Shown here in pieces: positions 31,255 to 64,000 of a stretch of DNA of 64,000 nucleotides. The notes under the pieces are model-generated. The model was not told where the DNA came from. It did not search any database and was given only the letters and a program-made list of their open reading frames with translations. The translations under genes were made by a program, and so were the position numbers. Source of the DNA: Eledone cirrhosa (taxonomy: Eukaryota); NCBI GenBank assembly GCA_964016885.1, contig OZ024743.1:377890001-377954000 (forward strand), read 5' to 3'. Position 1 is the stretch's first letter. The number at the start of each line of letters is the position of its first letter.

Positions 31255-31315
<61 letters not shown>

Positions 31316-31413
31316 TATATATATATATTTTCCAATACATACTTTTATGGAGCAATTCTGAGCTATAATCCTCTCCTATATCAAACAGAAGATAACTAGA
31401 CTATATATAATAC

Positions 31414-31578
31414 ATGAAAATGGCTGATGCCGAAGAAGTGATAGATAGCTACCGTTCGTCTCTTGCTGATTTGACCATTAATAGCAAGCCACTAATCAGT
31501 ATGTTGACCATGCTTGCCGAAGATCATATCCAGTATGCCCAACACATCGTTCAGCTGATCGAGCAGCATTTACAAAAG
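31414..31578 (+). CDS. PCF11: PCF11 exon 1 (CID N-terminal part; ATG 31414 or 31420)
   Basis: ORF 31414; non-consensus donor AAG|GTTTCG. Confidence 0.92.
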
Positions 31579-33406
31579 GTTTCGCTTTCTACATTTTTTT
31601 AGGATTCTATCAATTCGCCATCGGATTTCAATCAATATTGTGTTTCTTTATGTTATTATTCCGCGATATTTTTTTTTCTGTGATCGCCATCTTGAGTTTG
31701 TGAGATTGAAATTTGAGTGCGAAATGAAAGGTTCTCTCATATTCTACTTATAAATATACTTGTTTTATAAATTTTTTTTCAGTATTGTATTGTATTAATT
31801 TTTATTACTTCTTTTTAAATGCGTATGAGTTGTTAATTCAATGGTAATTCCTGATTTAGGTCAGTTAATGTTTGTTAGATGACCTCTAGTAGTTTTCTCC
31901 TTTTTTCCTCCTTTAATGAAACTGTTTTATGATATTTAGTAATCATTAGAGTTTGTAATATTATTAATAGATACAAGACTTTTCTAAATGTTTAGCGTTT
32001 TGAATAAGTGATAATACGACAGAATTGTTAGATGTGGGATGGCGAGTTAATATGAAGACCCAAAATCTAGATTAATCATGAAATCACCAGGAAGTTATTA
32101 TATAAGCATAATATTAATGATTAGTTGAATCGTTTGAATACTATAATAGTGGAAGGTTTATTCACGTCTTTATACTAATTTTTGGTTGAAAACCGCATTT
32201 TACAGAAAAGTTGGCTGTCATTAAGAAAGTATATATAACAAATCTCTTGTATCCATGGTCATTAATGAATTTAATTTGCTCTACTACAAGCTATCTTATA
32301 TGTATTATTATCTTGTCTCATTGTTACCGTTAGTGCGTGTAACATTAAATATTGTTCCTTCATAAATACCTAAATTATTTGACTATTGTTAGAGCATTCC
32401 TCTTTGAAATGTACACTTGAATTTGTATGTGTGTGTGTGTGTATATGTATTTCGATTCTTTATGTAGATATATATATATGTGTATGTGTGTGTGTGTGTG
32501 TATATATATAATCCCGAGTTTAATCGGGAGTAACCACAGTAAGGTACTCAATACGTTAGAATGTCTACAGAATTTAATATAGAAATGGCTTCTATCGGAC
32601 TAGAACTGTTTCGTTCAAAGGAAACTCAGGAAAGCCCCTGATAATATTCTTCGAATGAAATGTTATAGACCTGTAGAAGCCATTTCTATATTAAATTATA
32701 TTTCCTTGTACCTTGCCATATCTATTATTTTGATAGACTTATTGTGTTAGACTATGTAGGGAATGGTTATTATTAATCGCTGCCGCTACTACCTCATCAC
32801 ATCCTTTTTTAGTTTCAAGGACTTCAAGATCGCTTCTTGTTTTTAATGTATAAAATAATTGAATAGTATTGATAAAATAACCTGATTTAAGATTCTTTCA
32901 TTGGTGTCGACGTGATTGTTTAGTTTAATATTGAAATTTATTTGCTAAGTAAGACTTATTAAAATATACTGTTAATTAGCGTTAGTTTATTTTTCATATA
33001 TTAATTTGACTTGTGATTCTATGTAGTTAATATTTTAGTGTTGGTGTAGATATATTTAAATTTAATCGTTCAAATTAACATAGGTAGTTTATGTAGTTTC
33101 GTGTACATGTGGTGTGAATACACGATTTAGTCAGTGAAGTGCAAATAAAGTATATATAAAAAATAATAAAAGTAAAGAAAGGTGCTTTTTCGTTATTACT
33201 CTGTAAAATATTTCATTTTCATTATTACTTTGCAAAAATATTTTCATTTTTGAAATTATTTATCTATTCTTAGTCATTTCCTCTTAACCTATTTTTTCCC
33301 GTCTACAATTGTAGCTGCATTGTTAAACGCTGTCAGACATTAATTCAGTGGTTGGGGTGCCATATGTTTGAATAAATTCAACCGTTTTCATGAACCATTA
33401 CATTTT

Positions 33407-33455
<49 letters not shown>

Positions 33456-36400
33456 GAAAATGTATAAAGGTTCATGAAAACGGTCATATATATATTATAT
33501 AATAAGTTTGTTTTTTTAAATTATATTTATAATGGTTTCTTTTATTAATAAGCTATTAAATAATGACGAAATAGTCCAGAGAATAAAAACTAATAATTAC
33601 TTTGGCTATTGGGATAAGACCCATACTGTCAGTAATGCATTTGGAAATGTCTTAAAAAACAATTATTCTGCAGCTTTGTTACAAGATGTGTAATCGAGTC
33701 TCCAGCCATCGTTGATATTTTTCTTTCTGGTGTTAATATATGTCATCCATCAACCGTACTTCGTCCGTATTTAAACAATCCTAACTTAGTAAATTAGGTT
33801 GTTTCCAACCCCATCCCTCTCATAGTTTTATAAACTTTTATACGGACGTTAAATTGCTTTCTTTCCGTGTAAGTCTTAGAATTCTTGTATAAACATCCAT
33901 TAACCCAAATTCTGATTGTAAAAATATTTATTTCCGGTATTGCTTAAGAAATTTGCTCAAATTCAGAGAAATTAGTGATGGAAAGCTTTGGAAACTGCTT
34001 CTTTGAGTTGAATACTTTGCAGTTGTCATTTCGAAAGGCAAATAAAAGCGTAAGTTTGAATTAGGATTGAAGAACAATAAAAGCGCACGTATTCAAATCC
34101 AGCCATATGCATGTTTTTTTTTTTTTTTTTTTTTTTATGTCCGTTGCACTTTATATTCTATGTTCACGTGTTAAATTGATATATTGATGCGCTTGCTGGT
34201 TCTGGTTCGGTCTTCCCCTGTCAGGATGAATGGCCAAAATCTACGTGCAGAGCATGAGGTAAGATGAACTTGTCCACAATCCAGGTTCTCTTTGTCATTT
34301 CATTTAACATTGACAATTCAGTATAAACTGATTATTTAGTGATTGAGATCTAGTCATATTCGTTTAAAAATGAAATTATTTTATATCCTTTGTCACCAGT
34401 TAAACCTGTTGATTCCTTTACGGACAGGGTCGGATAGTTTTAGTTGAGTACATTTGGGCCTGTTGATTTAGTTGATGGCGTTTATTTTATTTTTACAATG
34501 TGGATATTAACCATATTTCTAATATAAGACAGTGCCTGTGGTTTTCGGGTCTACAAAATAAGAATGGGTGTGAGTAATAAAAGAAACTATCATTAAGCTG
34601 GTGTTTGGAACATAACTTAAGGTACTTGCATAAAATTATGATGGAGGCTTTTTTTTATATACAAGATATGATCACAACCCTTTAGTCACCAATCATATCA
34701 AAACCGGTTCTGGTTCTATGAAATAAAGTCACCCATTTTAAAGGTTTCCAATTTAAATTAAAATCTATAAGAACCTTACATTAAGTTACTTAGTAATGAA
34801 ATGATTATTTATTTTAGTAAATTCCTCATTGATTAATTAAAATAGAGAGTATTTCATTAGAAATGCAGTTTTGAACGGTTTAAAATAAGCGGTATTGTAT
34901 CAAAAGGTTTACAGCAATTTTTTTTCCCATTTAAATATTCTGACATCTGGTGAGACCTACCAATATATAATCAATGAAGATTTTACATATACAACAATGG
35001 ATTTAATTTCCTTGTTGCTGCATAAAAATTAATCGGCCAATCCCCAAATTTGATGCTAATAATGTAGTTTTAGTATTTTAAATTTAATGGAGGCATGTAA
35101 GTGAAATTATTTGCCTATATTTTGTTGACTTGACATCTTTAGGGTTTTTTTTTTGCTTATTTTAATTATTTCTAATAGAACGTGCAGGTTCAGGGAAATG
35201 GCAGGCAGTCACTACAAAGTGTTTGTTTTGAGTCACTAAAACATCTAGTGTTTGTTTTGAGTCAACTTTGCCTTTCTTCCCTTCTTAAATTGCTGGCCTT
35301 ATGCCAATTTTTTTTAGTTCGTGTTAGGGAAATGTTATCAAACAAAATCAAGAATTACATGTCACCTAAGATTAAACAAGCTTGGGGTGAGCAGGGAATC
35401 TTTCTGTATTTCAATTTATGTGATATTCAGGACACTCAAGGTTTTCTCGTGTTAGTAAATGGTTAGGTGTCAGTAATTCCATGACTGCCATTCTTTGGAA
35501 ATACATAAGAGAAAGTATGTTTCTATTCGATGAAGGATTTTCCTTTGGAACTTCAATTAAATTCTGGTTTTATGTGTATTGTCAGTAAAGTAGTTAATGG
35601 TCATTGATTAGAGTTTATTTTATATAATATATTTCTGTAGCTAAAAGTAATTGGGTGTAAATTTAAGGGTGAAAGTCATGGTTATCTTTTTATGTACATT
35701 TTCCATACTGGCATGAAGTCCAGATATGCATTACTCCACTCTTAGTTAGATAAGAGGTATAAGTCTATTTTTCTCCCCATATATAATGAGTCATGATAGG
35801 CTTTCAAGTTTGTATAGATGATGACTCGATATCGTATATATACATACATTGGTGTATGTTTTTACCAGTTATTTAGAATAATTAATGTTGACCATTACAA
35901 TAACCTGGTGTGGTGGTGAACGATTTGAATTTTTTTTTTTATTCAACATGGACACTGGCTTTGGAATTAATGGGTGGATAGAACCATCAGGTCAAATCTT
36001 CCTTTTGGCAGTGCTATGCAATTTCCACATCCACAAGTTTTCTGGTGTACAGTATACAGAAGACTTGCTCCAGTCAAACGCAGCTTTTTAAATACCTTTA
36101 GCATGATGAAGTACACCCAGTTGATGGTGGGTGGTTAGACTGATCCAACTCGTGCAGAAATTTTCAGGCTTTCCATATTGCACAGCCTCCCCAGTGTTCG
36201 TATGGCAACATACAGTGTAGGACGTATACAATCTTCTGTTGTGTGCAAGATTATGCAGTCAGCCTGGAAAAACTTATGTAAAAAAAAAAGATAATTTTGG
36301 TTGTTCCAAGACTACAAGGAACCTGATTTGTGTTAGCTTGCTGGGAATTATTATTTGCCCGAATCATGGTATAATTAGTTGTATATTAAAAATATCTCTT

Positions 36401-39400
36401 AATATAATTTTCACTAAAACTGTGAATTCCAACATTGAGGTTTGATCTCAATGACATGTACAATGTATCTTTTGTCAATATATAGTGTCTGTCTTTTGTG
36501 CACATTTAACCTGCCTAGTTTCTTTCTCATCCTTTCTCACTCCACATTCTTTGAGTTAGCATTACATATCCAACTTGCATATTTTCAAGCCTGCAGTTGA
36601 TGGCCAAGACTTATTCCTTATGCATTCTTTTTGCATCCCATCTCTATTTTGAGTCAAGGTATATATTATGCACATACATAGTGGTTTAGCCATCTTTTCT
36701 TTAGAATATCCTTATAATTTTACCACCCTTAGTATTTGGCTTATTTGTTGATTATAATGATGGTAAGTTCTTTAATAGCTTGTTCAAACTTTTTTCTTTG
36801 TTTCTACTAAAAGTGGGGAGTTCTTCAATTTCAAATCAGCTTTTAATAGTATTAATTTGAACAGTGTGTACATTTAATATGGCTGTCCTAGAATTTGCCC
36901 TGAAGCCTATGCAAGCCACGGGAGGTAAGTACACACTTAAATGATTAGATTTAGAGGAATGTCAGCCATTTTACAAAATATTGTAGAACTATAGATTAAA
37001 TTGTCATTGTACTTATAATTCATTAACATGCTGAGTCTTTTGTCTTTCGACATCACTTTCAATATTTTGAGTAATTTATTTTAGTTATTTTTCTGCTAAT
37101 GTGAACTTTGTGTGTAGTGTGGTAAATGGTTAGATCTGTATGTGATGCAAGCTATTTGAATTTTTTATTTCTGTCTAGACAAACATTAATAAATATAACT
37201 TTATCTTGATTACACTTGCGTGTAATTTTCTCTTTTTCTCCCGATTTCTTATTTTTTTCAGGCAGCATGGTGATTCGGTGATAGTGCTGGCATTGGTACT
37301 TTAAGAGTACTTTGTGTCCTTGCCATAGCTGCAGTGAGAGTATTTATTGCTATAAGTACCACAGGAATGAATGCATTAATAGGTTTACAATTTGTGCATC
37401 ACTTCTGCTAAAAATTAAGTCCAATAAGTTGCTCATGGATAGTAAACTACAAGCAAGTGTTTATGGTCATTTACTTGCCTTGCTAAAATAGGGATTGTTT
37501 GGTTTGCAGCCCCCATGACAGGCTTCATACTCAGTGTTTCTTTATTAGGCAATGCTTTATGGCTGGATACCCTTTTTCGTGCCAACATTTTTAGTTGTTT
37601 CTTAACACATACAGGGGTACAGTGTAGTAAGAAGCAATTTAAATGGTTGCCATGAAGGGCACCCACCTGTAATGCATTTCCCAATTCATGGACTCTGGTA
37701 ATAACTTTAATTAGGTGAGGGAATGGCTACAATTATTTGTTCATCAAACATTTTCCATTCTTAGGGTGGTGGAGTTCTTTCTAGATTTAAAATTCTATTT
37801 AACCATGGGTAAATATGTTCATTTAATTAATATTAATTAGATGAAGTTACACTGTTTGATGTTAATTATAGTTGAGTATCTTGTCATGGACTCTTTAAAA
37901 CAAGCAATGTATTATTTAGTTAGAATTTGATTCTATTGATCACAAATTAGATTGTTGATATATATTGGCAATCTAATTATACAAATATATTTTAACAATA
38001 TTACCAAATATTAATAAACTAAATTTAAGTTATTTAAACCATTTACCTACTTTCTTGGATTGTAGTATCTAAATAAAATCTATCAAATATGTACCTGTGC
38101 GTGTAATGCCGATCTTTAAATGAGGGGGATTAATGGGGTATCTTTGGGTAGAAATGAAAGGAGTATCATTTGAATTGGCTGCTTTTACACGCTCTTATCC
38201 TGAAAAGCTACATCTCAAGCTGGATTCAGCAAAAGTATCTCAAGAAATTTCAGCTGGCGTTTGTTGAACAGTTAGAAACTGTATTAGTTTATAAGAATAA
38301 ATGATTGCCCGTCAATTTGTCTTGCCTTCTGAGTACTTAACATGCAAGTTTTGTTTTTGTTTCATAATAAATAAAGTATTTCAATTTTGAACAGATGCAG
38401 GTTTAGTTGGTCAAGTTGGCTAGCAGCATGTTTTCAGAAATTTTAATTTTAAAAATAATTAGCATACTTTTAATGCTAATTGATATTTATTTAAATATCT
38501 GATTATAAAATTGAAGTATTAAAACTGATTTATGTAGCCAACTTGCTTTAAACTTGTTTCTTTCACTCTTGAGAGGTTCCCAACTCATTTAGATGGCTCA
38601 CTGTGCATTGAATGTTTATAAAGAGTTAATGTAACAACAATACTGAATAATTTTATGTTTGCTAATATTGTTAATCATTCATATATTTAATTAACTTTTT
38701 TTAATCTGAGGAAAATTAACATGTATTTTAATTGTAAAATCATAAGATTGTTTGTTTGTTGTTACAAAACTCTTTTGTCATCTATTTTGGGAATCTTTAT
38801 TGGGTTATATTGCCATGAATTGGCTAAGTTGTATTGTTCGAATCCATTTTTCGAAATTAAGAAGAAACCTTGTGATTCATTGGACAAGATTCATTTTCCA
38901 TGAAATAATGGAATTTCAAGAAAGAACATCAAAAGAGAAGCGGTAGGAATGATGTTACGTAATTTCTTGTTAAATGAAGACCAATTTCTGATTATGCATT
39001 TACATCTTAAATGTACAGCATTACAAACCTTAGGAATTGATAAACAGGTAGGAGAAACTCCACACTGTTGGTGGTCAACAATGATAATAAATGTACTTCG
39101 AAAATCAGTTTGTATCCTGGATATTTTTTTTTTTTTAACTGGTGATTGATTAGGTCATTAGTGACCTAACGAATATATCATAAGCATCACGATTCCTTCT
39201 AAAGCACCTGTTACGTTCCATTGTTTTGGATGTCAGGTAAGAGTTTGGATATTTCTTCATGCTCTAGATTTCAATTATATTTTTATAAGTTGTGTAGTTT
39301 GGTCTCGCCACCAAAAGATCTTTCACATGTGAACTTCAGTGTATTTTCAGTTGCAGTTTGGTCAAAACACTGAAATTTGGTCTTGTGAGATCATTCTTAG

Positions 39401-39478
39401 AATCTGAATGATCAAGCATTAGGTTTTTCTCATGTACACAAGGCTTGAGAATTGTGGAGTGATCTTGATTTTCATATT

Positions 39479-39511
<33 letters not shown>

Positions 39512-42335
39512 CTTTCATTTAGAAATGTATTTCATATTTTAAGTCTGTTCTTGTTCTTTTCAGGTCAAACCATCACAGAAATTACCAGTTCTATATTTGA
39601 TTGACTCAATAATAAAGAATCTGGATGAGTGTGAATACCCTCAACTTTTCAGCAAAAATATAGTTGCTATATTTTGTGATACCTTTGAAAAGGTTAGGAT
39701 GAGTTGCAGTGATTTTTACGTAGATTTCTAAATCTTGGTATTCATATGGGAGGGTTTTAAGAGAGGTAATTTGGGCAGGTGTTTTTGTGAATAAAGTTTA
39801 GCTTTTTCATTTTTGAGTACATCTAATTTTCTTTTGTCGTAAAATGTTATTAAAGAATGTTTCAATTATTTTGTGATGTACTTTGTATCATTTTTTTTTT
39901 CCATTCATATTGATTAGAATGCTTAATTATCAGTTTAAATATAAAAGTTGCTTGGCTAATTTTCTATTTTGAATTTATTAGTATTCTGCCAAATAGATTT
40001 GTTACACAATTCAAATTTAGTCTGCTGAATATATTTACATTATAATTAATAGAAAAGGTTTCCAAAACTACAAAAATTTGCAGAGTGGATGTTGGGGTTG
40101 TATTGCTAAATATACAGGTTTTTTTGGTGTATAGGTGGATGAAAAAACCAGAGCAGCAATGTACAAACTTAGACAGACTTGGCAGATGTATTTCCCTAAC
40201 CAGAAACTATATGCACTTGATATGCGTGTGAACTTGTTGGATCCAGCTTGGCCTGTCATCGCAGATCCTCCTGGACAAGGAAACATACATGTGAATCCAA
40301 GATTTTTAGTCCAGGTAAAAGATATCCTGCCAGCTCCAGTTGATGACCTTTTTCCCCCTTCCCATAGTTGCAATAAAAGATTAGTTAATTCCATTGTTAC
40401 TAACATATTGTCATTTCATGTGACAAATCTTCAGTTCAAAATTTTGTTGCAGTAAATTTTTTTTTATGTACAGGGAAATTCCGTTATAAAAAAATTCACA
40501 GGGTATAAGAAAATTTCTTTGTAACAAGATCGACTTAACACATTGAGTGTGTGGCCGGGGATTGAAAACAAATTTTGTTATACTGAAAAATTTGTTATAA
40601 CGGAATTTTACCTGTACATAGTTCATTGTAGGGAAATGCTTTTTCTTTTTTTGTTTTAGATCATGAGAATGAAATTTTCATTTTTATAATCTAAAAAAAA
40701 AAATGGGTTGCATTGAAAGTATTAAATCAAAATTGTTAGTATATATGTATTTGTTTTAAGAAAGTAAGGGGGGGGGGTCTAATTGGGATCATGTTACGGT
40801 TTTTATTTCATTGAATCTCTATTTTGATTTTTCTGTATTAATTCTGGCTTTTCCATCATGTTGCTACTATGGCAGTACTGTCTCTACTAGAATGGGTTAG
40901 TTTCTTGCGGGCTGTTTAGAGTAATAAAATATTGTGAATGGACGGACAAATAGTTTTTTTTTTTTTTTTTAGTAAAATGTTTGCCTCACAGCTCATTAAA
41001 ATGTACTCAATCTATTGTATATCGCCATAATATATATAAAATATTAGAATTCTAAATGTTCCATTTTATCTTAGTTAGAAGAGGGCTTCATTTCATGTAA
41101 TTCTTGGTAAAGTTTAGTTCCTTATACACTTTAGTTGGTCAATAGATGTAAATATATTTTTTTTTTTTTTTTTTTGCTGCACAAAATCTGAAAAGTTCTC
41201 TTTATTTCTTTCTCACTCAAAAGAATATTCATGTTTACAAAATAAACCTTGTCATCATCCAACTTCCCCCCTCTCCCATCTTTGTCTGGGTTACAATTTT
41301 GTGGTTTCCATACCAAAGAAATTTTTGTATTTTAGCCACCACAACACTTGTTGATTATGTAGGAGTTAAATATTTCATTCATCATTCTCATGGATTTAAA
41401 TATCACCTCATACTGTTCATTTAAATCTACTAGGCTTATTTCATTCAATCTAAATTAAATGAAGTTATCTGAAAAGCTGGGTAATGAGTGGTGGGCTTTT
41501 TCTTTAAAGTTTAGTTGTATAGATGTGTGAGCATTTTCAGTTATGTAAAGTTTTCTTTGCGAATAGCGATAATCTGGGTTATTTTCGTTTGTGATTATTT
41601 GAATGTCTTCGCGTTTATTCCTTACAATAAGATCTGTCTGAACAAGTTTGAAGCAGCAAGTTTTACAAATAAAATTATTGCTAATTTCAATAAAACTTGA
41701 CATTTTATTAACCTATCAAAATGTTCAGTAGTCAGGCAGCTAATTAATGCTGTCTTTTCTGAACAGAAAGAGGAAGAAAGAAAACCTGTAGAGCAACCAG
41801 AAACTGTGATGAGAAAACAATTGATAGCTAAGCAGCAAGAATTACTGGGAATATTGCAGCAACAGGTGGACCATGACTCAACAGAGCCTACTGCCAATTC
41901 ATCAGACAGTATCGACAAACACCAGGTAATGGTGTACTGGGTTCTATTTTTCCTGACAGAAAAATTGAGGCTACTAGGGTGTCTTTTTATGTACAGTGTT
42001 TTGATTTTTATTATATACAGCAGTAGGGACCAATTTAATTTATTTATATATATGGTAGATATGGATTAAGCTTTGAAGCAACATCTCAATTGAGATCCCC
42101 CTCCTAAGAAAGATGCATGTTATATAATGGGTTGTCTGTTTTTTTTTAGTTGGATGATGACTTGTATATACAGTATTGTCTTAAGTTTGACATTTATATT
42201 AGACATAATTAGTATTTTTAATTTCTATTCAGAATCGTTTTTATATATCTAACCATATAATTGATTCAGTATTTTTTTTTATTTTGCATTTAGTTAGTTA
42301 TATACTTTTTAGTTATAAAATAGTAATACTTATTT

Positions 42336-45300: not shown

Positions 45301-48300
45301 CGAGAGAGAGAGCTATATCAATTAATAACCACATATATTACCGATTTGGTGAAGATATTAAAGATGTGCAAATTGATGGTCGATGGCACAGAATACACTA
45401 TCAAGGGCAACCTAAAAATATATGGGTAGATGGACAAAGTTATGAGGTACGAGTGGATGCACCACCAAGGCGTATTATACTTAACAAAACTGAACACTTT
45501 CTCCATATTGATGGAAGAGATATGATGATTTTTATTGATAGAATAAAACATGGCATATATGGTGGTCCACCAAGAAATATATTTATTAACAATGGTTGTC
45601 ATGAAATAAGGTTTGACCCTCCACCAAGGCAAATTCTAATAGATGGTAAACAATGTGAATTGAAATTGAGTTGTCGTATACCTTTTGTTGTTATTGATTG
45701 CAAACCACATGGCATCAGGTTTGATGGTCCAGATCGAGAAATTATCATAGATGACACTTCGTACATGGTTCCAGTTGATAAACCAATAAAAATTCGACTT
45801 GGTAAACGTCCTCATTTTCTTGCATTTGGTGGTCCTGCTCATGAAGTTATTATTGATGGTAAATGGTTTGAAGTTCGATTTGATGGTCCGCCGGTAGAAA
45901 TTCATCTAGGGAATAGAACCCACTCTGTCATGCTGAAAGGTGCCTCTCCTAATGTAAAAATTCTTGGAGAATTACCTTTTATCCCTGAACCAAGTAGGCC
46001 TCAATTTAGTTTTGGAAATTCAAATATGTTTAATCCAACACCTCCTATAGTAAATAACTTTAATCAACCAAGAGTACCAGATAACTTTCAACCAAGGCCT
46101 CCACACTGGGATGTTGCATTTGAAAGGAGGCAAAATCAACCAGATACAATGGCAATGATTCGACAATCTCATTTCCCACCAGAGAGACCTTTAGAAAGCT
46201 TAAGATTTCCAACAATGCCTCCTATCATTGGATCAAACTCTGTACAACCACTCCCTGCTCCCAGTCTAATGAATAGTGGACAGCCTCCATTTTATCCCAA
46301 CATGACAGGAACTATTGGTGCAGTTGCACTGCCACCACTACCAACCCTACCCCCAGGCTTAGGTCCGGTTCCTACACCCACACCGGTTGCTCCACATCAG
46401 TTTCCTCAAATTACCTTCACAACAGGTTAGTGTTGCTCATTTATTTTTTCTTTTGTATATTAAAAATGTGTTTCATATTTCATATAACATTATTTAATTT
46501 TACTTTTTTGTTTTTTTACCTTAGCTGGCTTTGTTGGAAATATCTCTGCTCCTGCCATATCAACTGTTCCAGTTACTCAAACTGCTCTTGCAACAGCCAA
46601 TATTGTTTCTAATAATGTGTCTGTACCAGCTCCCCCTCTTTCAGTAAATGCTCCTACTTTATTACCAGGTCTAACATCTCTTCCTTCTGCACTCAACAAG
46701 ATGGTTCCTCCTCCTAATAATTTATGTAAGTCAATTTTATTTTGTTTCATTTTGTATTAATGGGGTCTTAATAAAACAATCATTAAAACTTAATTAATCA
46801 TAATTATCATTAAGTCTGCTTTTCCATGTTGACATATGTTGGATAGGATGTTTTGAGATAGTCTTATAGCTGGATACCCTTCCTGGCCCCAACCCTTTTA
46901 GTTGTCTATTACAACATGCAGGGACATATTAAACATTTTTAATTAGCTGTAACAGAAACTGTTTGGTCTTATAAAACTGCATTGTTGTGTTTATAAATCT
47001 AAAAAGGGGAAAAGAGAATGAACGAGAAGATACAAATATTTTGTTCACCTAATGATATTTTCATGTTCTATCAGTTCCTTGTTATGGGAACTAAATTAAC
47101 ATCTCTTCAGTATTGTAACTGAAATTGCTAAAGAATTACATATATTGTGTAAAAACAGTCTTTTTTTTTTTTTTTTTTTTTCAATTTAAGAACTTCTATT
47201 TGGGATGGCTTATTTAAAATTATCATATTTTAGTTATCTTAAAGTAAATCAACATGTAGTAAATGATATATTTCTATCTTTTTCAGTAACTGTAGGTCAA
47301 CCACAACCAGTAGTAACTCAGCCTATTGATGTTGCATCACTGTTCCAAAAACTTGTCAGTGCTGGTATTATTCCAAATAATGTCGCCAAAAAAGAAAAGG
47401 AAGAACCTCCTGAAAAGGTTTACATACTTTTCTATCTAGTATTTTGTCTGTTTGTTTTGTGAAAATCTATCTGTTATGATATTTCACGTTTTTTGTTCTC
47501 CTTTTATAGGAAAAGGAACCAGAACCTGAAGTAATTCCTGATTTGACTGATTTTAAGAGTGACAAATTAAAAGTGTAAGTATAATTTTTCTCCTAATAAT
47601 ACTTAACTTCATTTTTTAAAAACACTTAAATGTTGTATTTTTTTAATTTTAGTAATACTTGAATAAAATTTTTTCCAACTGTTAAAATTTGCTCCCTTCT
47701 GGGGCCTCAGGATATGCAAACTTTCTGTGTCCATCCCATGCCTCCCAGAACAGGTCACGGGTCTATCTCTAGTTTTTGCGGCATGAGATGGAGACTGCAA
47801 TATATTTTTCGAACAGGCCCCTCCACCTGAGGCCTTGAATAAAGGGTTCATAAAAATTGTAATTTTTGTAAAAAGTGTGTTGTCACGTTAATTTCATCTA
47901 ATTTCCTTTTCTGAAACTATAGAATGTGCTTTTTCATCACTGCATTCTTACTACTACTACTGCCATCATTTTCTTACTGAAGCATTTCTATAAATCAACT
48001 AAAATGCATCTAAAGAAAAATATTTAAATACCTAGTTTTATGTTAAAAACCTCTTTATATCTATGTTTTCTTTCATTTGTGTCACCAAAATTTGCATATT
48101 TATTATACAGATTAAAAATTTCGTTTAAACCATTCTAATTATACTATCATTATATTACATTTTAGATTCCCTTGTTTTACAAATTACATAACATATGAAA
48201 GCACCCCCATTAAATTTCCAATTGAATTATATTGTTCACTGAATACAGTCTATTGTCATGTTCAATGACAACCCCCAACATTGGTTCATTGTAAAATCAA

Positions 48301-56612: not shown

Positions 56613-59600
56613 TTTTACAAAACACTGAAAATAAATTTCACGGAGGACGTGCCTCCCCCCCCCCCTCCTGCGCCAAACCAATCAACTGCGTCCTCCTAAA
56701 AAATGTCACCCCCCACCTCACCCAGACACCCACTCAACCACAAACACCCCAACCCCACAACACACTGATGCCCCTTCACTTCCACAAACCACCACCCCAC
56801 CCAACAACCCATCCCCAACCAGCATGGAAATTGAGCGGCCCGTTTCCCGGGACGCAGAGAGGTAAGTGCCTTTTCTCCTTGCCACCAACATGGCTGTGCT
56901 AAGAGTAGGGTGTCTAAATGCGCATGGCCTAGGCTCATCTTGGAAGCAAGCAATGCTTCTAAATGACCTCAGGTCACAATCTATAAATGTGGTGGTTATC
57001 TGCGAGGCCCGGATCAGCAGCATGCGACAGCTAGCCCCCACCTTTGACGACTTTGAGATGCACGCATCTCTCTGTCAGCCCGGAGGTGGGGGTGGGGTTG
57101 TCGTTCTGCTGCAAAAACATATGGGCCTTGCCACACAGATAGTTCACTTGGACCCAGGGGGTCGACTGGTGGTGCTGGACCTTGGCAGTGGTGAAGGTAG
57201 AGCCTTTAGGCTGGTAGCCGCATATGCCCCTTTTGGGACAGAGCGGCCCGACTTTTTCCAGCGTCTGGAGTCTTTTGTAGGGACGACCCGTTCCCTGCTT
57301 TTAGTGGGGGACTGGAATGGTATCTGGATGCACGTTGGGACTATGCAGGGGCATGTCCCGATAGAGAGGGGTGCAACAGCCTCAAGGGGTTACTCGGCCG
57401 ATTTGACCTGGCCGATAGATTTCGACTAGATTTTCCGACGGTGCCAACCTGGTCTTGGTCAAATCGCAGCGGATCATCTAGGTCGTACCTAGATAAGTTT
57501 TTAGTTAGAAATAAGGACAGGGACTTTTTAAGTTGTCCAGAAATGCTCATGGTTGGCTATTCAGACCACAAGTTGGTGACCTGCATGGTCAACCTTGATA
57601 GAACGCATAGACAGGGCCCCGGTTACTGGAAGCTCAACTTGTCCTTACCGGCAAGTAGAGCTTACAGGGATCGGATTAGTACGTTAGTTAAGGAACGGTT
57701 GACTGGAGCGATCGTCAACAGCAGGTGGTGGGTATCTCTAAAGAGAGTGATAAGAGTAGTCTCGATAGAATTTAGTAAGGTTCTAGCTGCGGATAGGAAT
57801 AGGAAGGAAAGGGGGCTAATAGATAGAGTAGAAGAGGCAATTAGAAGCGGCGACGTGGCCAGAGTGCTAGCGTCGAGAACGGCTTTGAGCCAGTTTTTCA
57901 ACGCGAAGCACAAAGGCTGCGTTGTCCGAAGTAAAATACGTGCTCTAGGGAACGAGGGGACCAAAGCTGTTAGCTGGGCCCGCGTGACAGAGGCCAACAG
58001 TGGAACTAAATCCACCATCCGGTCTTTGCGAGACCAGGATGGACGGGCGATTCTTGAGCCTAAGCAGATGTGTGAGGCCTTTCAAAGGCACTTTGCCCGA
58101 CTGTTCGGAAGGGGCAGGGAGCCGGTTGGGGATGTGGACTTCAGTCCATACCTCGACGGCCTGCCGCGTCTCTCGGACAGGGAGGCGAAGTCCTGCGAGG
58201 AGCCGATTTCGGCCGCTGAGATAGAGGACGTGCTGAGCCAATGCGGCAAACGCAAATCCCCGGGTCTCGATGGTCTTCCATATGAATTATATCTAGCTAT
58301 GCCGGACTTGTTCCCCAATCTCCTCGAGGCGGTCTACTGCAACTGGCAACAGAACGGGAGAATTCCCTGTACTGTGACCAAGGGCGTAGTCACGCTAGTG
58401 AGGAAGGACGAGAACAAGGGGGACGAAATAAGTAACTTCAGGCCCATAACTCTGCTAAATACAGAGTTACAGATTTTGGCCAAGGTGCTAGCAAAGAGGT
58501 TGGCGCTTGTCGTGGGCAACCTGGTGGGAGATGCGCAGACATGTGCTATCCCGTCCAGGTCCATCCATGACAACCTCCACCTCATGCGATACATCATAGA
58601 GAGGGTTGGGAACGAACCCGGCTTTGGTGGGGCTCTGATCAACTTGGATCAATCTAAGGCGTTCGATAGGGTCGACCATGGTTACCTGGATGCAGTGCTA
58701 GAGGCGGCAGGCTTCGGACCCGTTTTCAGGGGCTGGATCACTGCTATGCACAGCAGCCGCATCTGCTCTAGGGTCAAGGTGAACGGCTACCTCTCGGAGC
58801 CGTTCAAAATCGCGCGGTCCATCCGACAAGGGTGCCCTCTCTCCTCCCTTCTGTATGTGTTGACTCTCGAGCCACTACTGCGGAAGTTGGAGTTGTTGCA
58901 GGGCATCCCTTTGGAACCGGGATTGCGGAAAGCGGTGTCGGCCTACGCTGATGACGTGACAGTAATGGTGTCGACGGCCTCCGAAATCGGGGCGGTCGGC
59001 ACCTTACTGGAGGAGTATGAAAAGTTCACAGGGGCTAAGCTGAACCGGGACAAGTCGATCGGTTTGCAACTCGGCACGTGGAGGGGCAAACCGATGCCCT
59101 CCGATGGCATCGTCGGATGCTGGACGGAGGGCCCGGTGAAGTTGCTCGGGGTCTGGTTCGGACCGGACCTCTAGGTGGAGAAGAACTGGGCGGAGGTTAC
59201 GAACAGGGTGTTTGCACTGACCCAGAAGTGGGCCAGTTGCAAACTATCCCTGAAAGGTCGGGCGGAGGTGGCGAACACCTATATAGCGTCCGTCATCTAC
59301 TACCGCCTGACCGTAGTGCCCTGCCCAAGGAAACCCTCGCCAAGATGGAGCGCGCGCGCTTCCAATTCCTTTGGAAGAGGCAGGCTCCTATGGTGAGGAG
59401 ATCCATCTGCTGTCAACACCCTTCGAAAGGAGGGCTGGGGATGCCGTGGCTAATGATGCGTAAACACGCATTAAGGCTACGGCACCTCTACGTATTCCTC
59501 ACCGGTCAACCGGTGTGGGCCTCGTTTGTGAAACGAACCTTTCCCAGACTCGTCTCACTCACCGAGCTGCAATCCTGGGTCAAGCAAAGACCGAGAAAAC

Positions 59601-60589
59601 TGGGCGCCTGGCACACTGAGTGTGCCCAGGCGCTCACCGCCCTCTGGCAGGCGGATCCGGTTATCAGTGGAGACTCCACCGCAACATTCTATAGAGGGCT
59701 GGTACGCAGCAGGTGCGACGACGCCCTCGGAGAAGCCCTAGACATGGAGGAGGACGAACTGGCCAGCCTGTTCGGTAGGACATTCAGCCCGGGACCTATG
59801 GACAACTTCCAGAAGTCCCTGGCCTGGCAGTGCTACCAAGGGGCTCTACCCGTTCGAGAAAAGCTCTACAGACATGGGCGCCCGGGTAGGGACCCCACCA
59901 AAAAGATCTGTCCCAGATGCGTGTGCAACGAGGAAACCGTTGCACACGCATTGGTACACTGCTCGGGCGTAGCCGATCTGTGGGGCTATGTCGAACAACT
60001 GCTGTCAAGGGTGGGACCGATCCGGTTGACCACCGAGTCTATTGTAATGATCAAGCCGCCTCCCCCCTTCAAAGATGAAGGAGAGGCGATGTTTCTGTGC
60101 GTAATAGCCATGGTGAAAGAAGTTGTATGGTGGACACGTCTGAAAGGACTGAGGTCAGGCACCTTTCTCTCTGGCCAACAACTGGTCCGTTTCTTCCGAT
60201 ATCATTTCGGAAGAAGGATCAGGATGGAGAGAGAGGTGCTCCACCCCAGTCGTTTTTATGAAAGATGGGTGAAAGTGGCGAGAATGGCCCGTGTGAATGG
60301 GCCTTCTCTTTACATAAGCCTGTAGGTGGAAAAGAGGAAGGAACGAGGGAGCACCCCGTCTCTGTGCTCCTGAGGAGAAGGGTTGCACACTTTTTTCGAG
60401 GGTGTGTGCGAACCCCCAAGGCGCCTCCTCTCTATGGAGGATTTTGTTATAAATTTTATTTTTTGTTATATTTTATTTTATTTTTATATTTTGTTATTGC
60501 CTCCTCCTTATTGAGGAGGCCTTTTTGTGTAAACTCCCCCCATTGTACTTGTCCCACTTTTGATGCCCTGGTGGCAAATAAAAGAAACA
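56613..60589 (+). mobile_element. Tx1/L1-clade non-LTR retrotransposon, 5'-truncated in ORF1, 20-bp TSD
   Basis: TSD TATCTATTTACATATCTCTC at 56593-56612 and 60590-60609; 3' end GGCAAATAAAAGAAACA; much more GC-rich than the flanks. Confidence 0.9.
56890..60325 (+). pseudogene. Disrupted Tx1-type ORF2 (APE endonuclease, reverse transcriptase, C-terminal CCHC)
   Basis: LNAHGL, VGDWN, SYLD, SDH (APE); KSPGLDG, FRPITLLN, DQSKAFDRV, RQGCPLS, YADD (RT); CPRC...HALVHC. Frameshift near 57325, TAG at 59172, frameshift near 59330. Confidence 0.92.
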
Positions 60590-63049: not shown

Positions 63050-64000
63050 TATATATGTATGTTCTTCTGGTTTTATAATTTCACAAAGTTTTACCAATAG
63101 AGAGAGAGTCGGTTTCTAACATAGACACAAGGCTCTCTCATTGGAATTTACACAATATCAACTAGATAGATATGTATGTATGCATGTGTAGATATGGATG
63201 TTATTGTATGTGTGGATGTGGATGTTTTGAGTTGTATGTGTGCATGTGTATATGCTTTGCCTCTGTACATGTGTAAATGCAGTTACTAGATGCAAAATTT
63301 TTGGAATGTTTTACATATTTTTACTGTTCCATTAATGGATTGTACTTGTAATTTCCTAACTAGTTGTGTTCTTTCTGTTCCTGTGAAGCCTAGCTTCTCA
63401 AGATTTGTATTGAGGCAGTTACTAACATACCCCAGTGCCCCAATAATCACAGGCATAAATCTGAAGGTGTAATCAGGGTGGAGTATCTGCAGATTTCTCA
63501 TCAGTTTTGCATAAATATTCTCCTTTTCACTAATCTTTGATATTATATTGGCATCTGCTGGGCAGCTAATTTCCACTACTGAGCATGCTTTCTTCTCCCT
63601 GTCCCATATCATAATATCTGGTCTGTTATGCCTGCATTTTATTGGGGTTTTTACTAGAACATTCCACCAGTACTCTTTCATATTATGTACATGGATGTCT
63701 TCCACATTGCTGTAGCTTTTAATGTGTTTATTATCGGGGCTATCTTTTTTACGAACTGCATTGTACAGTGTTTTGGCCACTACATCATGCCTCATAGGTA
63801 GATAGTACCGCGATGACATCTTTGGACAGCTGCTGATGACATGGGTGATATCCTCGATGTTAGTTCACAGTCTACACTTGTTATCACATCTAGGTGTTTT
63901 GCCTGTATCCCTATCTCTTTTGTGAATCAGGTATTTCGTGTTCTTGGATTGCAAAAGCATATCCTTCAAAGTGGGAGCCAATATAGCGGTTGTTGGTCCA
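63050..64000 (-). mobile_element. R4/Dong-like non-LTR retrotransposon 3' end (restriction-like endonuclease), continues beyond window
   Basis: ORF 63286..63819 with RHD, RPD...VEISCP...K..EK..Y motifs; upstream disrupted CRL(C)...H.ISSC zinc knuckle; 3'UTR runs into (TA)n. Confidence 0.8.

What the first reader, a model, noticed from the sequence alone, without database searches (positions are those of the whole stretch)
31570..33240. PCF11 intron 1: weak 5' splice site plus clustered TGTA and poly(A) hexamers, suggesting autoregulatory premature termination in an invertebrate
Seen: non-consensus donor AAG|GTTTCG, an ~8 kb first intron, four TGTA within ~125 nt upstream of AATAAA(33144), TATAAA, AATAAA(33165) and AGTAAA, then a GU/U-rich element. 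Read-through into the intron stops at 31602, giving a 62-aa truncated CID. Established: vertebrate PCF11 autoregulates through a conserved intron-1 polyadenylation site with clustered hexamers and upstream UGUA. Inference: the same feedback loop exists here, by deep conservation or convergence. Caveat: AATAAA is frequent by chance in AT-rich DNA; the clustering is the signal.
Basis: partly seen in the sequence, partly recalled or inferred. Interest (0 to 1): 0.7.

Follow-up and report, generated by a model that had tools for sequence, protein, structure and literature searches.

The report
Slow-splicing PCF11 first intron, likely attenuator
In this mollusc (likely an octopus), the gene for the transcription-termination factor PCF11 has a long first intron with a poor splice donor that RNA reads into, which likely lets transcripts stop early and limit the protein, a feedback already described in vertebrates and flies, although no RNA ends are shown at the stop signal first flagged.

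Summary
The motifs are real and correctly placed: donor AAG|GTTTCG (31579), a 7,985-nt intron 1, read-through stop at 31602, four TGTA, then AATAAA/TATAAA/AATAAA/AGTAAA at 33144-33176. The cluster is rare (about 0.01-0.07 per 8 kb of genome background, criteria chosen after seeing it).

Its use as a poly(A) site is not shown. A same-species RNA contig bridges it, and others cover the intron to 39459. All 5 relatives' runs laid have an unbroken exon 1-intron contig, but they were chosen by shared words.

Across other animals the intron position and weak donor recur, but a poly(A) cluster does not; one animal simply retains the intron.

Best reading: a PCF11 attenuating intron with premature polyadenylation somewhere inside it (0.5). 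The 33.2-kb site as the main one: about 0.25. The loop is published for vertebrates, and PCF11-dependent premature cleavage for Drosophila. The scan noted a similar intron in a fungus. Verdict: likely new member of a known kind; interest 0.36.

The parts
31414..31578 (+). PCF11 exon 1 coding part (first 53 residues of the CID from ATG 31420; in-frame ATG also at 31414)
   Evidence: (yeast PCF11 structures, E 4.8e-8)
31576..31584 (+). Weak splice donor AAG|GTTTCG (0 of 4 consensus matches at +3..+6)
   Evidence: its use is shown by the spliced joint
31579..39563 (+). Intron 1, 7,985 nt, phase 0, splits the CID
   Evidence: GT..AG joint in RNA run X21
31600..31602 (+). Stop codon of the read-through frame (60 or 62 aa product, predicted)
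31579..31737 (+). Conserved 5' block of intron 1, aligned in 5 of 5 relatives' runs laid
   Evidence: read-through tails of P0001 and P0002 fit its first 21-23 nt within 2-3 letters
31607..31730 (+). Predicted hairpin: arms 31607-31633 and 31704-31730, 23 of 27 paired; arms nearly invariant, loop variable; no covariation
   Evidence: I18; z -2.3 to -2.6; one search gave z -0.78 on a wider stretch
33022..33105 (+). Four TGTA (candidate CFIm sites)
33144..33176 (+). AATAAA, TATAAA, AATAAA, AGTAAA in an A-rich tract: candidate proximal intronic poly(A) signal, use not shown
   Evidence: bridged by an RNA contig
33182..33260 (+). U/GU-rich downstream stretch (candidate CstF site)
37232..37261 (+). 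Strong acceptor-like site (second-best pyrimidine tract in the intron); would add three codons and a stop; no listed joint uses it
38128..38434 (+). Distal conserved non-coding block with AATAAA at 38296, 38366, 38370: second candidate 3'-end region
   Evidence: X3 record 26; 6.2% substitutions vs 4.6% in exons
39564..39692 (+). PCF11 exon 2 (CID continues)
   Evidence: PF04818, E 1.6e-6

Best explanation
Intron 1 of this PCF11 gene has a weak donor and RNA runs into it unspliced; part of that RNA is likely cut and polyadenylated inside the intron, which would give a short, non-functional message, and PCF11 itself likely promotes the cut, closing a negative feedback loop. Shown: gene identity, intron bounds, weak donor, motifs, a spliced form in this species, and exon 1-intron contigs in relatives. 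Inferred: that cleavage occurs; that it occurs at 33.17-33.20 kb (the first and best-formed signal, probably partial use) and/or near 38.3-38.45 kb (the conserved block); that the conserved hairpin slows donor use; that PCF11 level sets the split. My odds: 33.2 kb used at all about 0.4, as the main site about 0.25; distal block as the main site about 0.2.
For: The cluster is rare against 760 kb of genome background and 1,000 shuffles and is the first AATAAA after the donor. 5 of 5 relatives' runs laid (X15, X6, X12, X14, X3; 4 organism codes) have one contig bridging the donor to 31737; X14 and X3 are RNA by spliced joints. X21 (same species, RNA by three GT..AG joints) has contigs over most of intron 1. 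An intron at the same codon is proven in 20 of 46 animal-type loci (exon 2 found downstream) and inferred in the other 26. Only 2 of 46 loci (1 of 23 distinct donors) have +5G. The intron-1 donor scores below the intron-2 donor in 14 pairs, one-sided Wilcoxon p 0.039. Block 38128-38434 is as conserved as exons in X3 (19 of 307 vs 28 of 608 substitutions, p 0.34), while the 573 letters before it on the same contig do not align at 85%. Octopus uses canonical poly(A) signals (PMC9699675 supplement). The same architecture is proven in vertebrates (PMC6458999, PMC6428223) and indicated in Drosophila (PMC11368245).
Against: X21 record 9 bridges the cluster (32672-33374), and contigs continue over 33477-34102, 34840-37546, 37570-38676 and 38685-39459, so RNA passes both candidate sites. 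X3's and X21's contigs do not stop at one place near the distal block (about 38453 vs 38676). In 20 complete intron-1 sequences from other animals AATAAA exceeds shuffles in only 1 (L041, p 0.03), and L004, L035 and L038 have none. L038 retains the whole intron while later introns are spliced. X14 also has an unspliced contig across intron 2 (record 5), so read-through is not unique to intron 1. Runs were picked by words shared with the exon-intron stretch, which favours read-through. Intron-2 donors also mostly lack +5G. In one group of five related loci intron 1 is not weaker; the sharper contrast (9 of 9 vs 2 of 9 with a +3 pyrimidine) comes from a split I made after seeing the data, and the lineages are not independent. 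Another donor of this gene, at 47418 (inferred boundary), is nearly as weak.
Confidence: 0.5

Rival explanations
1. Intron 1 is a retained or detained intron: the weak donor (and hairpin) leave the whole intron in otherwise spliced transcripts, which would be held in the nucleus or destroyed through the early stop codon, with no cleavage inside the intron.
For: L038 is identical to the spliced L039 except for a complete 652-nt intron 1 that has no AATAAA. X21 contigs cover intron 1 as far as 39459, 104 nt from the acceptor. The weak donor recurs across animals but a poly(A) cluster does not.
Against: It does not explain the rare TGTA plus hexamer cluster. In X21 one contig carries the exon 1 end, all of exon 2 and exon 3 without a break at the acceptor (record 14).
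Confidence: 0.22
2. No regulation: the contigs are ordinary nascent pre-mRNA of a long first intron, the cluster is a chance A-rich tract, and the conserved blocks are DNA elements (promoter-proximal or enhancer).
For: A-rich tracts of this kind occur 0.6 times per 8 kb and 16 of 58 have two AATAAA; 6% of 125-nt tiles have 4 TGTA. A YY1-like motif (name recalled) sits unchanged at 31685-31693. Intron flanks are conserved in intron 2 as well (X14 record 5). The distal block has no Rfam match, no long ORF and no stable fold.
Against: 0 of 58 A-rich background tracts had 4 upstream TGTA. The donor is weaker than the next one across 14 pairs. The hairpin arms are conserved while the loop varies (13 of 70 vs 0 of 55 variable sites, p 0.0005). 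The loop is documented in vertebrates and indicated in fly.
Confidence: 0.22
3. Exon 1 is spliced to an alternative terminal or poison exon inside intron 1 (acceptor 37261, stop after three codons) that ends in the conserved distal block.
For: Strong acceptor-like site at 37261 upstream of the conserved AATAAA block. Short PCF11 forms from a slug, a sea slug and an ant have tails that do not begin with the read-through valine (P0031, P0108, P0095).
Against: X21 record 11 bridges 37261 unbroken (34840-37546), and no listed joint uses it (15 of 100 joints shown). Those tails matched none of the fetched introns.
Confidence: 0.06

Closest known systems
Vertebrate PCF11 intron-1 poly(A) site, PAS1/IPA (PMC6458999; PMC6428223; PMC8934653)
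   Same: First intron splits the CID; very weak donor; fairly long intron; tandem AATAAA (the human site also has a TATAAA between its two AATAAA, figure text); truncated ORF.
   Different: The vertebrate site is conserved, has mapped 3' ends and was deleted with effect. Here no ends are mapped, the cluster's conservation is untested, the intron is 8 kb rather than 3 kb, and there is a second conserved block and a hairpin at the donor.
Drosophila PCF11-RC short isoform and PCF11/Cbc-dependent premature site (PMC11368245)
   Same: Invertebrate PCF11 with a short isoform encoding a partial CID and premature cleavage; the authors suggest the same autoregulation.
   Different: The fly site is described as far 5' in the RC coding sequence of an 819-nt isoform. 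Here the candidates lie 1.6 and 6.7 kb into the intron and dependence on PCF11 is untested.
CSTF3/CstF-77 and Drosophila suppressor of forked intronic poly(A) feedback (PMC3708835, search listing and abstract start only; su(f) seen only as a reference title in PMC7471841)
   Same: 3'-processing factor with a large, weak-donor intron holding a poly(A) site.
   Different: Different gene and intron.
Budding-yeast PCF11 attenuation by premature termination (as summarised in review PMC7471841)
   Same: PCF11 level is limited by early termination.
   Different: Uses the Nrd1-Nab3-Sen1 route, absent in animals.

Membership tests
PCF11 intron-1 polyadenylation autoregulation | Gene is a PCF11 orthologue | tested here: met
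   Exon 1 matches yeast PCF11 structures; exon 2 hits Pfam CID; named homologues are Pcf11 or CID proteins
PCF11 intron-1 polyadenylation autoregulation | First intron splits the CID; read-through gives a partial CID | tested here: met
PCF11 intron-1 polyadenylation autoregulation | Weak 5' splice site on a long intron | tested here: met
   0 of 4 consensus matches at +3..+6; 7,985 nt vs 442 and 1,452 nt for introns 2 and 3; genome percentile not computed
PCF11 intron-1 polyadenylation autoregulation | Tandem AATAAA with upstream and downstream elements | tested here: met
PCF11 intron-1 polyadenylation autoregulation | Poly(A) signal conserved between species | tested here: inconclusive
   No relative's DNA over 33.0-33.24 kb was available. 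The distal block is conserved in one relative, but only 8 of its 19 substitutions were listed. Distant animals lack a consistent cluster
PCF11 intron-1 polyadenylation autoregulation | Polyadenylated RNA ends mapped at the site | not testable with these tools
   Only contigs were available; one bridges the site
PCF11 intron-1 polyadenylation autoregulation | Site use depends on PCF11 level; deletion raises full-length mRNA | not testable with these tools
   Needs knockdown or deletion
PCF11 intron-1 polyadenylation autoregulation | Same codon position as the vertebrate intron | tested here: inconclusive
   No named vertebrate sequence among the listed hits (120 of 795; 18 of 18); the equivalence is recalled and also claimed by note e1-9886994
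Retained/detained intron control | Transcript keeps the whole intron while other introns are spliced | tested here: inconclusive
   Met in another animal (L038 vs L039); not shown in this species, where no listed contig spans intron 1 into exon 2

The most novel reading that the evidence does not exclude
The weak-donor intron at codon 53 of PCF11 is an ancient sensor shared across animals, and lineages have swapped its exit route: intronic polyadenylation in vertebrates and flies, full retention in some animals, an alternative exon in snails and ants. In cephalopods a conserved hairpin beside the donor and two poly(A) regions set the choice between splicing and terminating.
Probability: 0.2. 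Interest if true: 0.65.

Novelty: new member of a known kind. Interest (0 to 1): 0.36.

Why it matters
PCF11 is a limiting termination factor that favours early poly(A) sites in long introns, so its set-point matters in a 3-Gb genome with long introns. A molluscan loop would add a third major animal lineage to vertebrates and insects and argue for an ancestral circuit rather than convergence. The cross-animal pattern suggests that the weak donor, not the poly(A) cluster, is the conserved part. Published octopus full-length poly(A) reads could test this directly. It extends a known mechanism rather than adding a new one.

Tried and rejected
Runs: no listed holder was on record as RNA; X21, X14 and X3 were shown to be RNA only by spliced joints; X15, X6 and X12 remain guesses. 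7 of 24 listed runs were laid.

A 32-nt match at 33149-33180 in X15 and X12 looked like conservation of the cluster. I rejected it: its flank belongs to another locus, L001 on C19.

No relative's contig otherwise aligned over 33000-33240 (80%, 85%), and X14 had no cover on the distal block. These are holes and prove nothing.

Contig depths were noted but cannot rank parts of a gene. X21: 15.4, 14.3, 10.5, 23, 13.6 and 5.7 along intron 1; 21.7 and 14.7 for spliced exons; 3.7 and 1.1 in two intron-3 bins; no cover listed at 39523-39561. X3: 17.1 on the distal block, 2.8 just after it. There is no step at 33.2 kb and a fall at 38.45-38.7 kb; at most a weak hint. X3's second contig (38529-38663) overlaps a stretch with an 82% copy elsewhere, so I do not count it.

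Rfam gave no match at gathering level in 31300-39700 (8 weak hits, mostly on TA/TG repeats). The distal block folds no better than shuffles (z +0.74) and has no stop-free frame over 48 codons. A donor-proximal hairpin is not general: z below -2 in 2 of 22 other loci. No long-range pairing between the two conserved blocks appeared among the 25 longest of 94 inverted repeats.

Literature: 'Pcf11 + intron + polyadenylation + octopus' returned 0 papers. Searches listed no molluscan case in titles or abstract starts, but led to the Drosophila paper. PCF11 is not mentioned in PMC9699675's main text or in the four supplement files searched; figures and isoform data there could bear on the claim.

Full report
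Gene and organism. The window holds a PCF11 gene on the + strand. Exon 1 matches yeast PCF11 structures, exon 2 hits the Pfam CID model, and the nearest named homologues are molluscan. No tool named the organism. Spliced joints in run X21 fix intron 1 at 7,985 nt, intron 2 at 442 and intron 3 at 1,452.

The observation. The cluster is the first AATAAA of the intron and the only one of 196 in the window with four hexamers and four upstream TGTA. Against 760 kb of arbitrary genome sequence, tandem AATAAA alone is common (0.93 per 8 kb). Adding three or four TGTA drops it to 0.074 or 0.011, and the full pattern was not seen; intron shuffles agree. These criteria were fitted to the site. The hexamers are partly a product of an A-rich tract, which is common, though none of 58 such tracts had four upstream TGTA. 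The region is single-copy. So the cluster is more than chance usually gives, at a modest level.

RNA evidence, contigs only. X21 is RNA of the same organism code as the DNA holders. It shows the spliced exon 1-exon 2 joint (26 letters on the short side) and a contig from 31551 into the intron (28 letters in the exon, short of a formal bridge). One contig bridges the whole cluster (32672-33374), and others cover 33477-34102, 34840-37546, 37570-38676 and 38685-39459. RNA therefore passes the proposed site. Partial use, or rapid decay of a short isoform, is not excluded. All 5 relatives' runs laid have a single contig from exon 1 to 31737. They were found by words shared with this stretch, so this is selected, and X14 also carries an unspliced intron-2 contig. 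An apparent match at the cluster in two relatives came from another locus.

First, the 5' 160 nt of the intron are conserved unevenly. All 13 listed variable sites lie in 31644-31703, none in 31579-31633, and record totals leave at most one unlisted per run. By my reading of the bin depths, deletions of 12-21 nt fall within 31615-31684. The invariant parts are the donor and two arms that can pair (23 of 27, probabilities 0.9 or more; z -2.3 for the first 160 nt; z -0.78 on a wider stretch). Invariant arms give no covariation, and a YY1-like DNA motif (name recalled) in the loop is also unchanged, so a DNA element remains possible. Read-through tails of two closer homologues fit the first 21-23 intron letters within 2-3 changes; P0001's fit is the best of 7,964 positions. 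Second, relative X3 has an 897-nt contig aligning at 38128-38434 with 6.2% substitutions, not different from its exons (4.6%, p 0.34). The block is single-copy, has no Rfam match or stable fold, and holds AATAAA at 38296, 38366 and 38370. That contig ends about 38453, some 80 nt past the last hexamer, while X21's runs to 38676, so no common end is seen.

Other organisms. A metagenome scan gave 62 loci. 46 are animal-type with a donor after the residue matching codon 53; exon 2 was found 347-4,532 nt downstream in 20 of them, and in 26 the intron is inferred from loss of the coding frame. Ten of 11 divergent loci (L054-L064) have a 74-83-nt intron there. I set aside L039 (spliced), L050 and L052 (no clear intron), L051 (contig ends) and L065 (weak hit). 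Of 112 short proteins with an anchor, 106 continue with valine, as read-through of a GT would give; many may be gene calls on DNA, and exon 2 also often begins with valine. Intron-1 donors are weaker than intron-2 donors over 14 pairs (p 0.039), with the caveats of a post hoc split and related lineages. A poly(A) cluster is not a shared feature: 1 of 20 complete introns exceeds shuffles and three have no AATAAA. L038 retains intron 1 in an otherwise spliced copy of L039. The conserved trait looks like a poorly spliced intron at this codon, with the exit route variable.

Mechanism. Most likely, slow donor recognition gives the cleavage machinery time to act at intronic signals, and PCF11 promotes that, limiting itself (0.5). 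Retention without cleavage (0.22), no regulation (0.22) and an alternative exon (0.06) are the rivals. Cleavage, its site and the feedback are all inferred.

What is known. PMC6458999 (passages, supplement search) and PMC6428223 (passages, section 12) show the vertebrate loop: conserved intron 1, very weak donor, tandem AATAAA, deletion raises PCF11. PMC8934653 (passages) confirms it. PMC11368245 (passages; its supplementary figure S15 not seen) reports a Drosophila short isoform with a partial CID and a premature site whose use needs PCF11 and Cbc. PMC7471841 (passages) notes premature termination of yeast PCF11. PMC8904962 and PMC6884704 (passages) cite only vertebrates. PMC9699675 (passages, supplements) shows canonical signals in octopus and does not mention PCF11. 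I found no molluscan report.

Verdict. It works like the vertebrate and fly loop on anatomy; membership is unproven because ends and feedback could not be tested, and no defining feature failed. Interest 0.36.

Noticed in passing
L035, L038, L053, about 105-170 nt into intron 1: Three related animals share a short intronic motif (L038 vs L053: 90% over 42 nt; the core is seen by eye in L035) in otherwise unalignable introns; L038 is the intron-retaining transcript.
   Followed up: partly
P0031, P0108, P0032, P0095: Short PCF11 forms from a slug, two sea slugs and an ant (named isoform X2) whose tails do not start with valine, hinting at an alternative exon inside intron 1; some may be gene-model errors.
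   Followed up: partly
P0013: A 63-aa exon 1 read-through peptide of Pacific oyster stands in UniRef and on 617 Logan contigs; whether these are RNA or DNA was not determined.
   Followed up: no
window 33372-33493: A (TA)21 run flanked by complementary arms forms a 61-nt palindrome about 200 nt downstream of the cluster.
   Followed up: no
window 32518-32700 and about 34540-34880: Two high-copy repeats inside intron 1 (very high DNA depth); the first has 36-nt inverted arms.
   Followed up: no
window 47418: A later PCF11 donor (inferred boundary) reads AAG|GTTTAC, nearly as weak as the intron-1 donor.
   Followed up: no
window 36565 and 37385: X21 differs from the assembly by a 13-nt deletion and a 7-nt insertion in intron 1, probably alleles.
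   Followed up: no
window 56866-60325 (+) and 63286-63864 (-): Long frames that look like non-LTR retrotransposon endonuclease and reverse-transcriptase pieces, judged from the translations only.
   Followed up: no
window 38574-38700: 82% match to one other place in the genome (L003); by eye the likeness runs on to about 38830, probably an old repeat next to the conserved block.
   Followed up: partly
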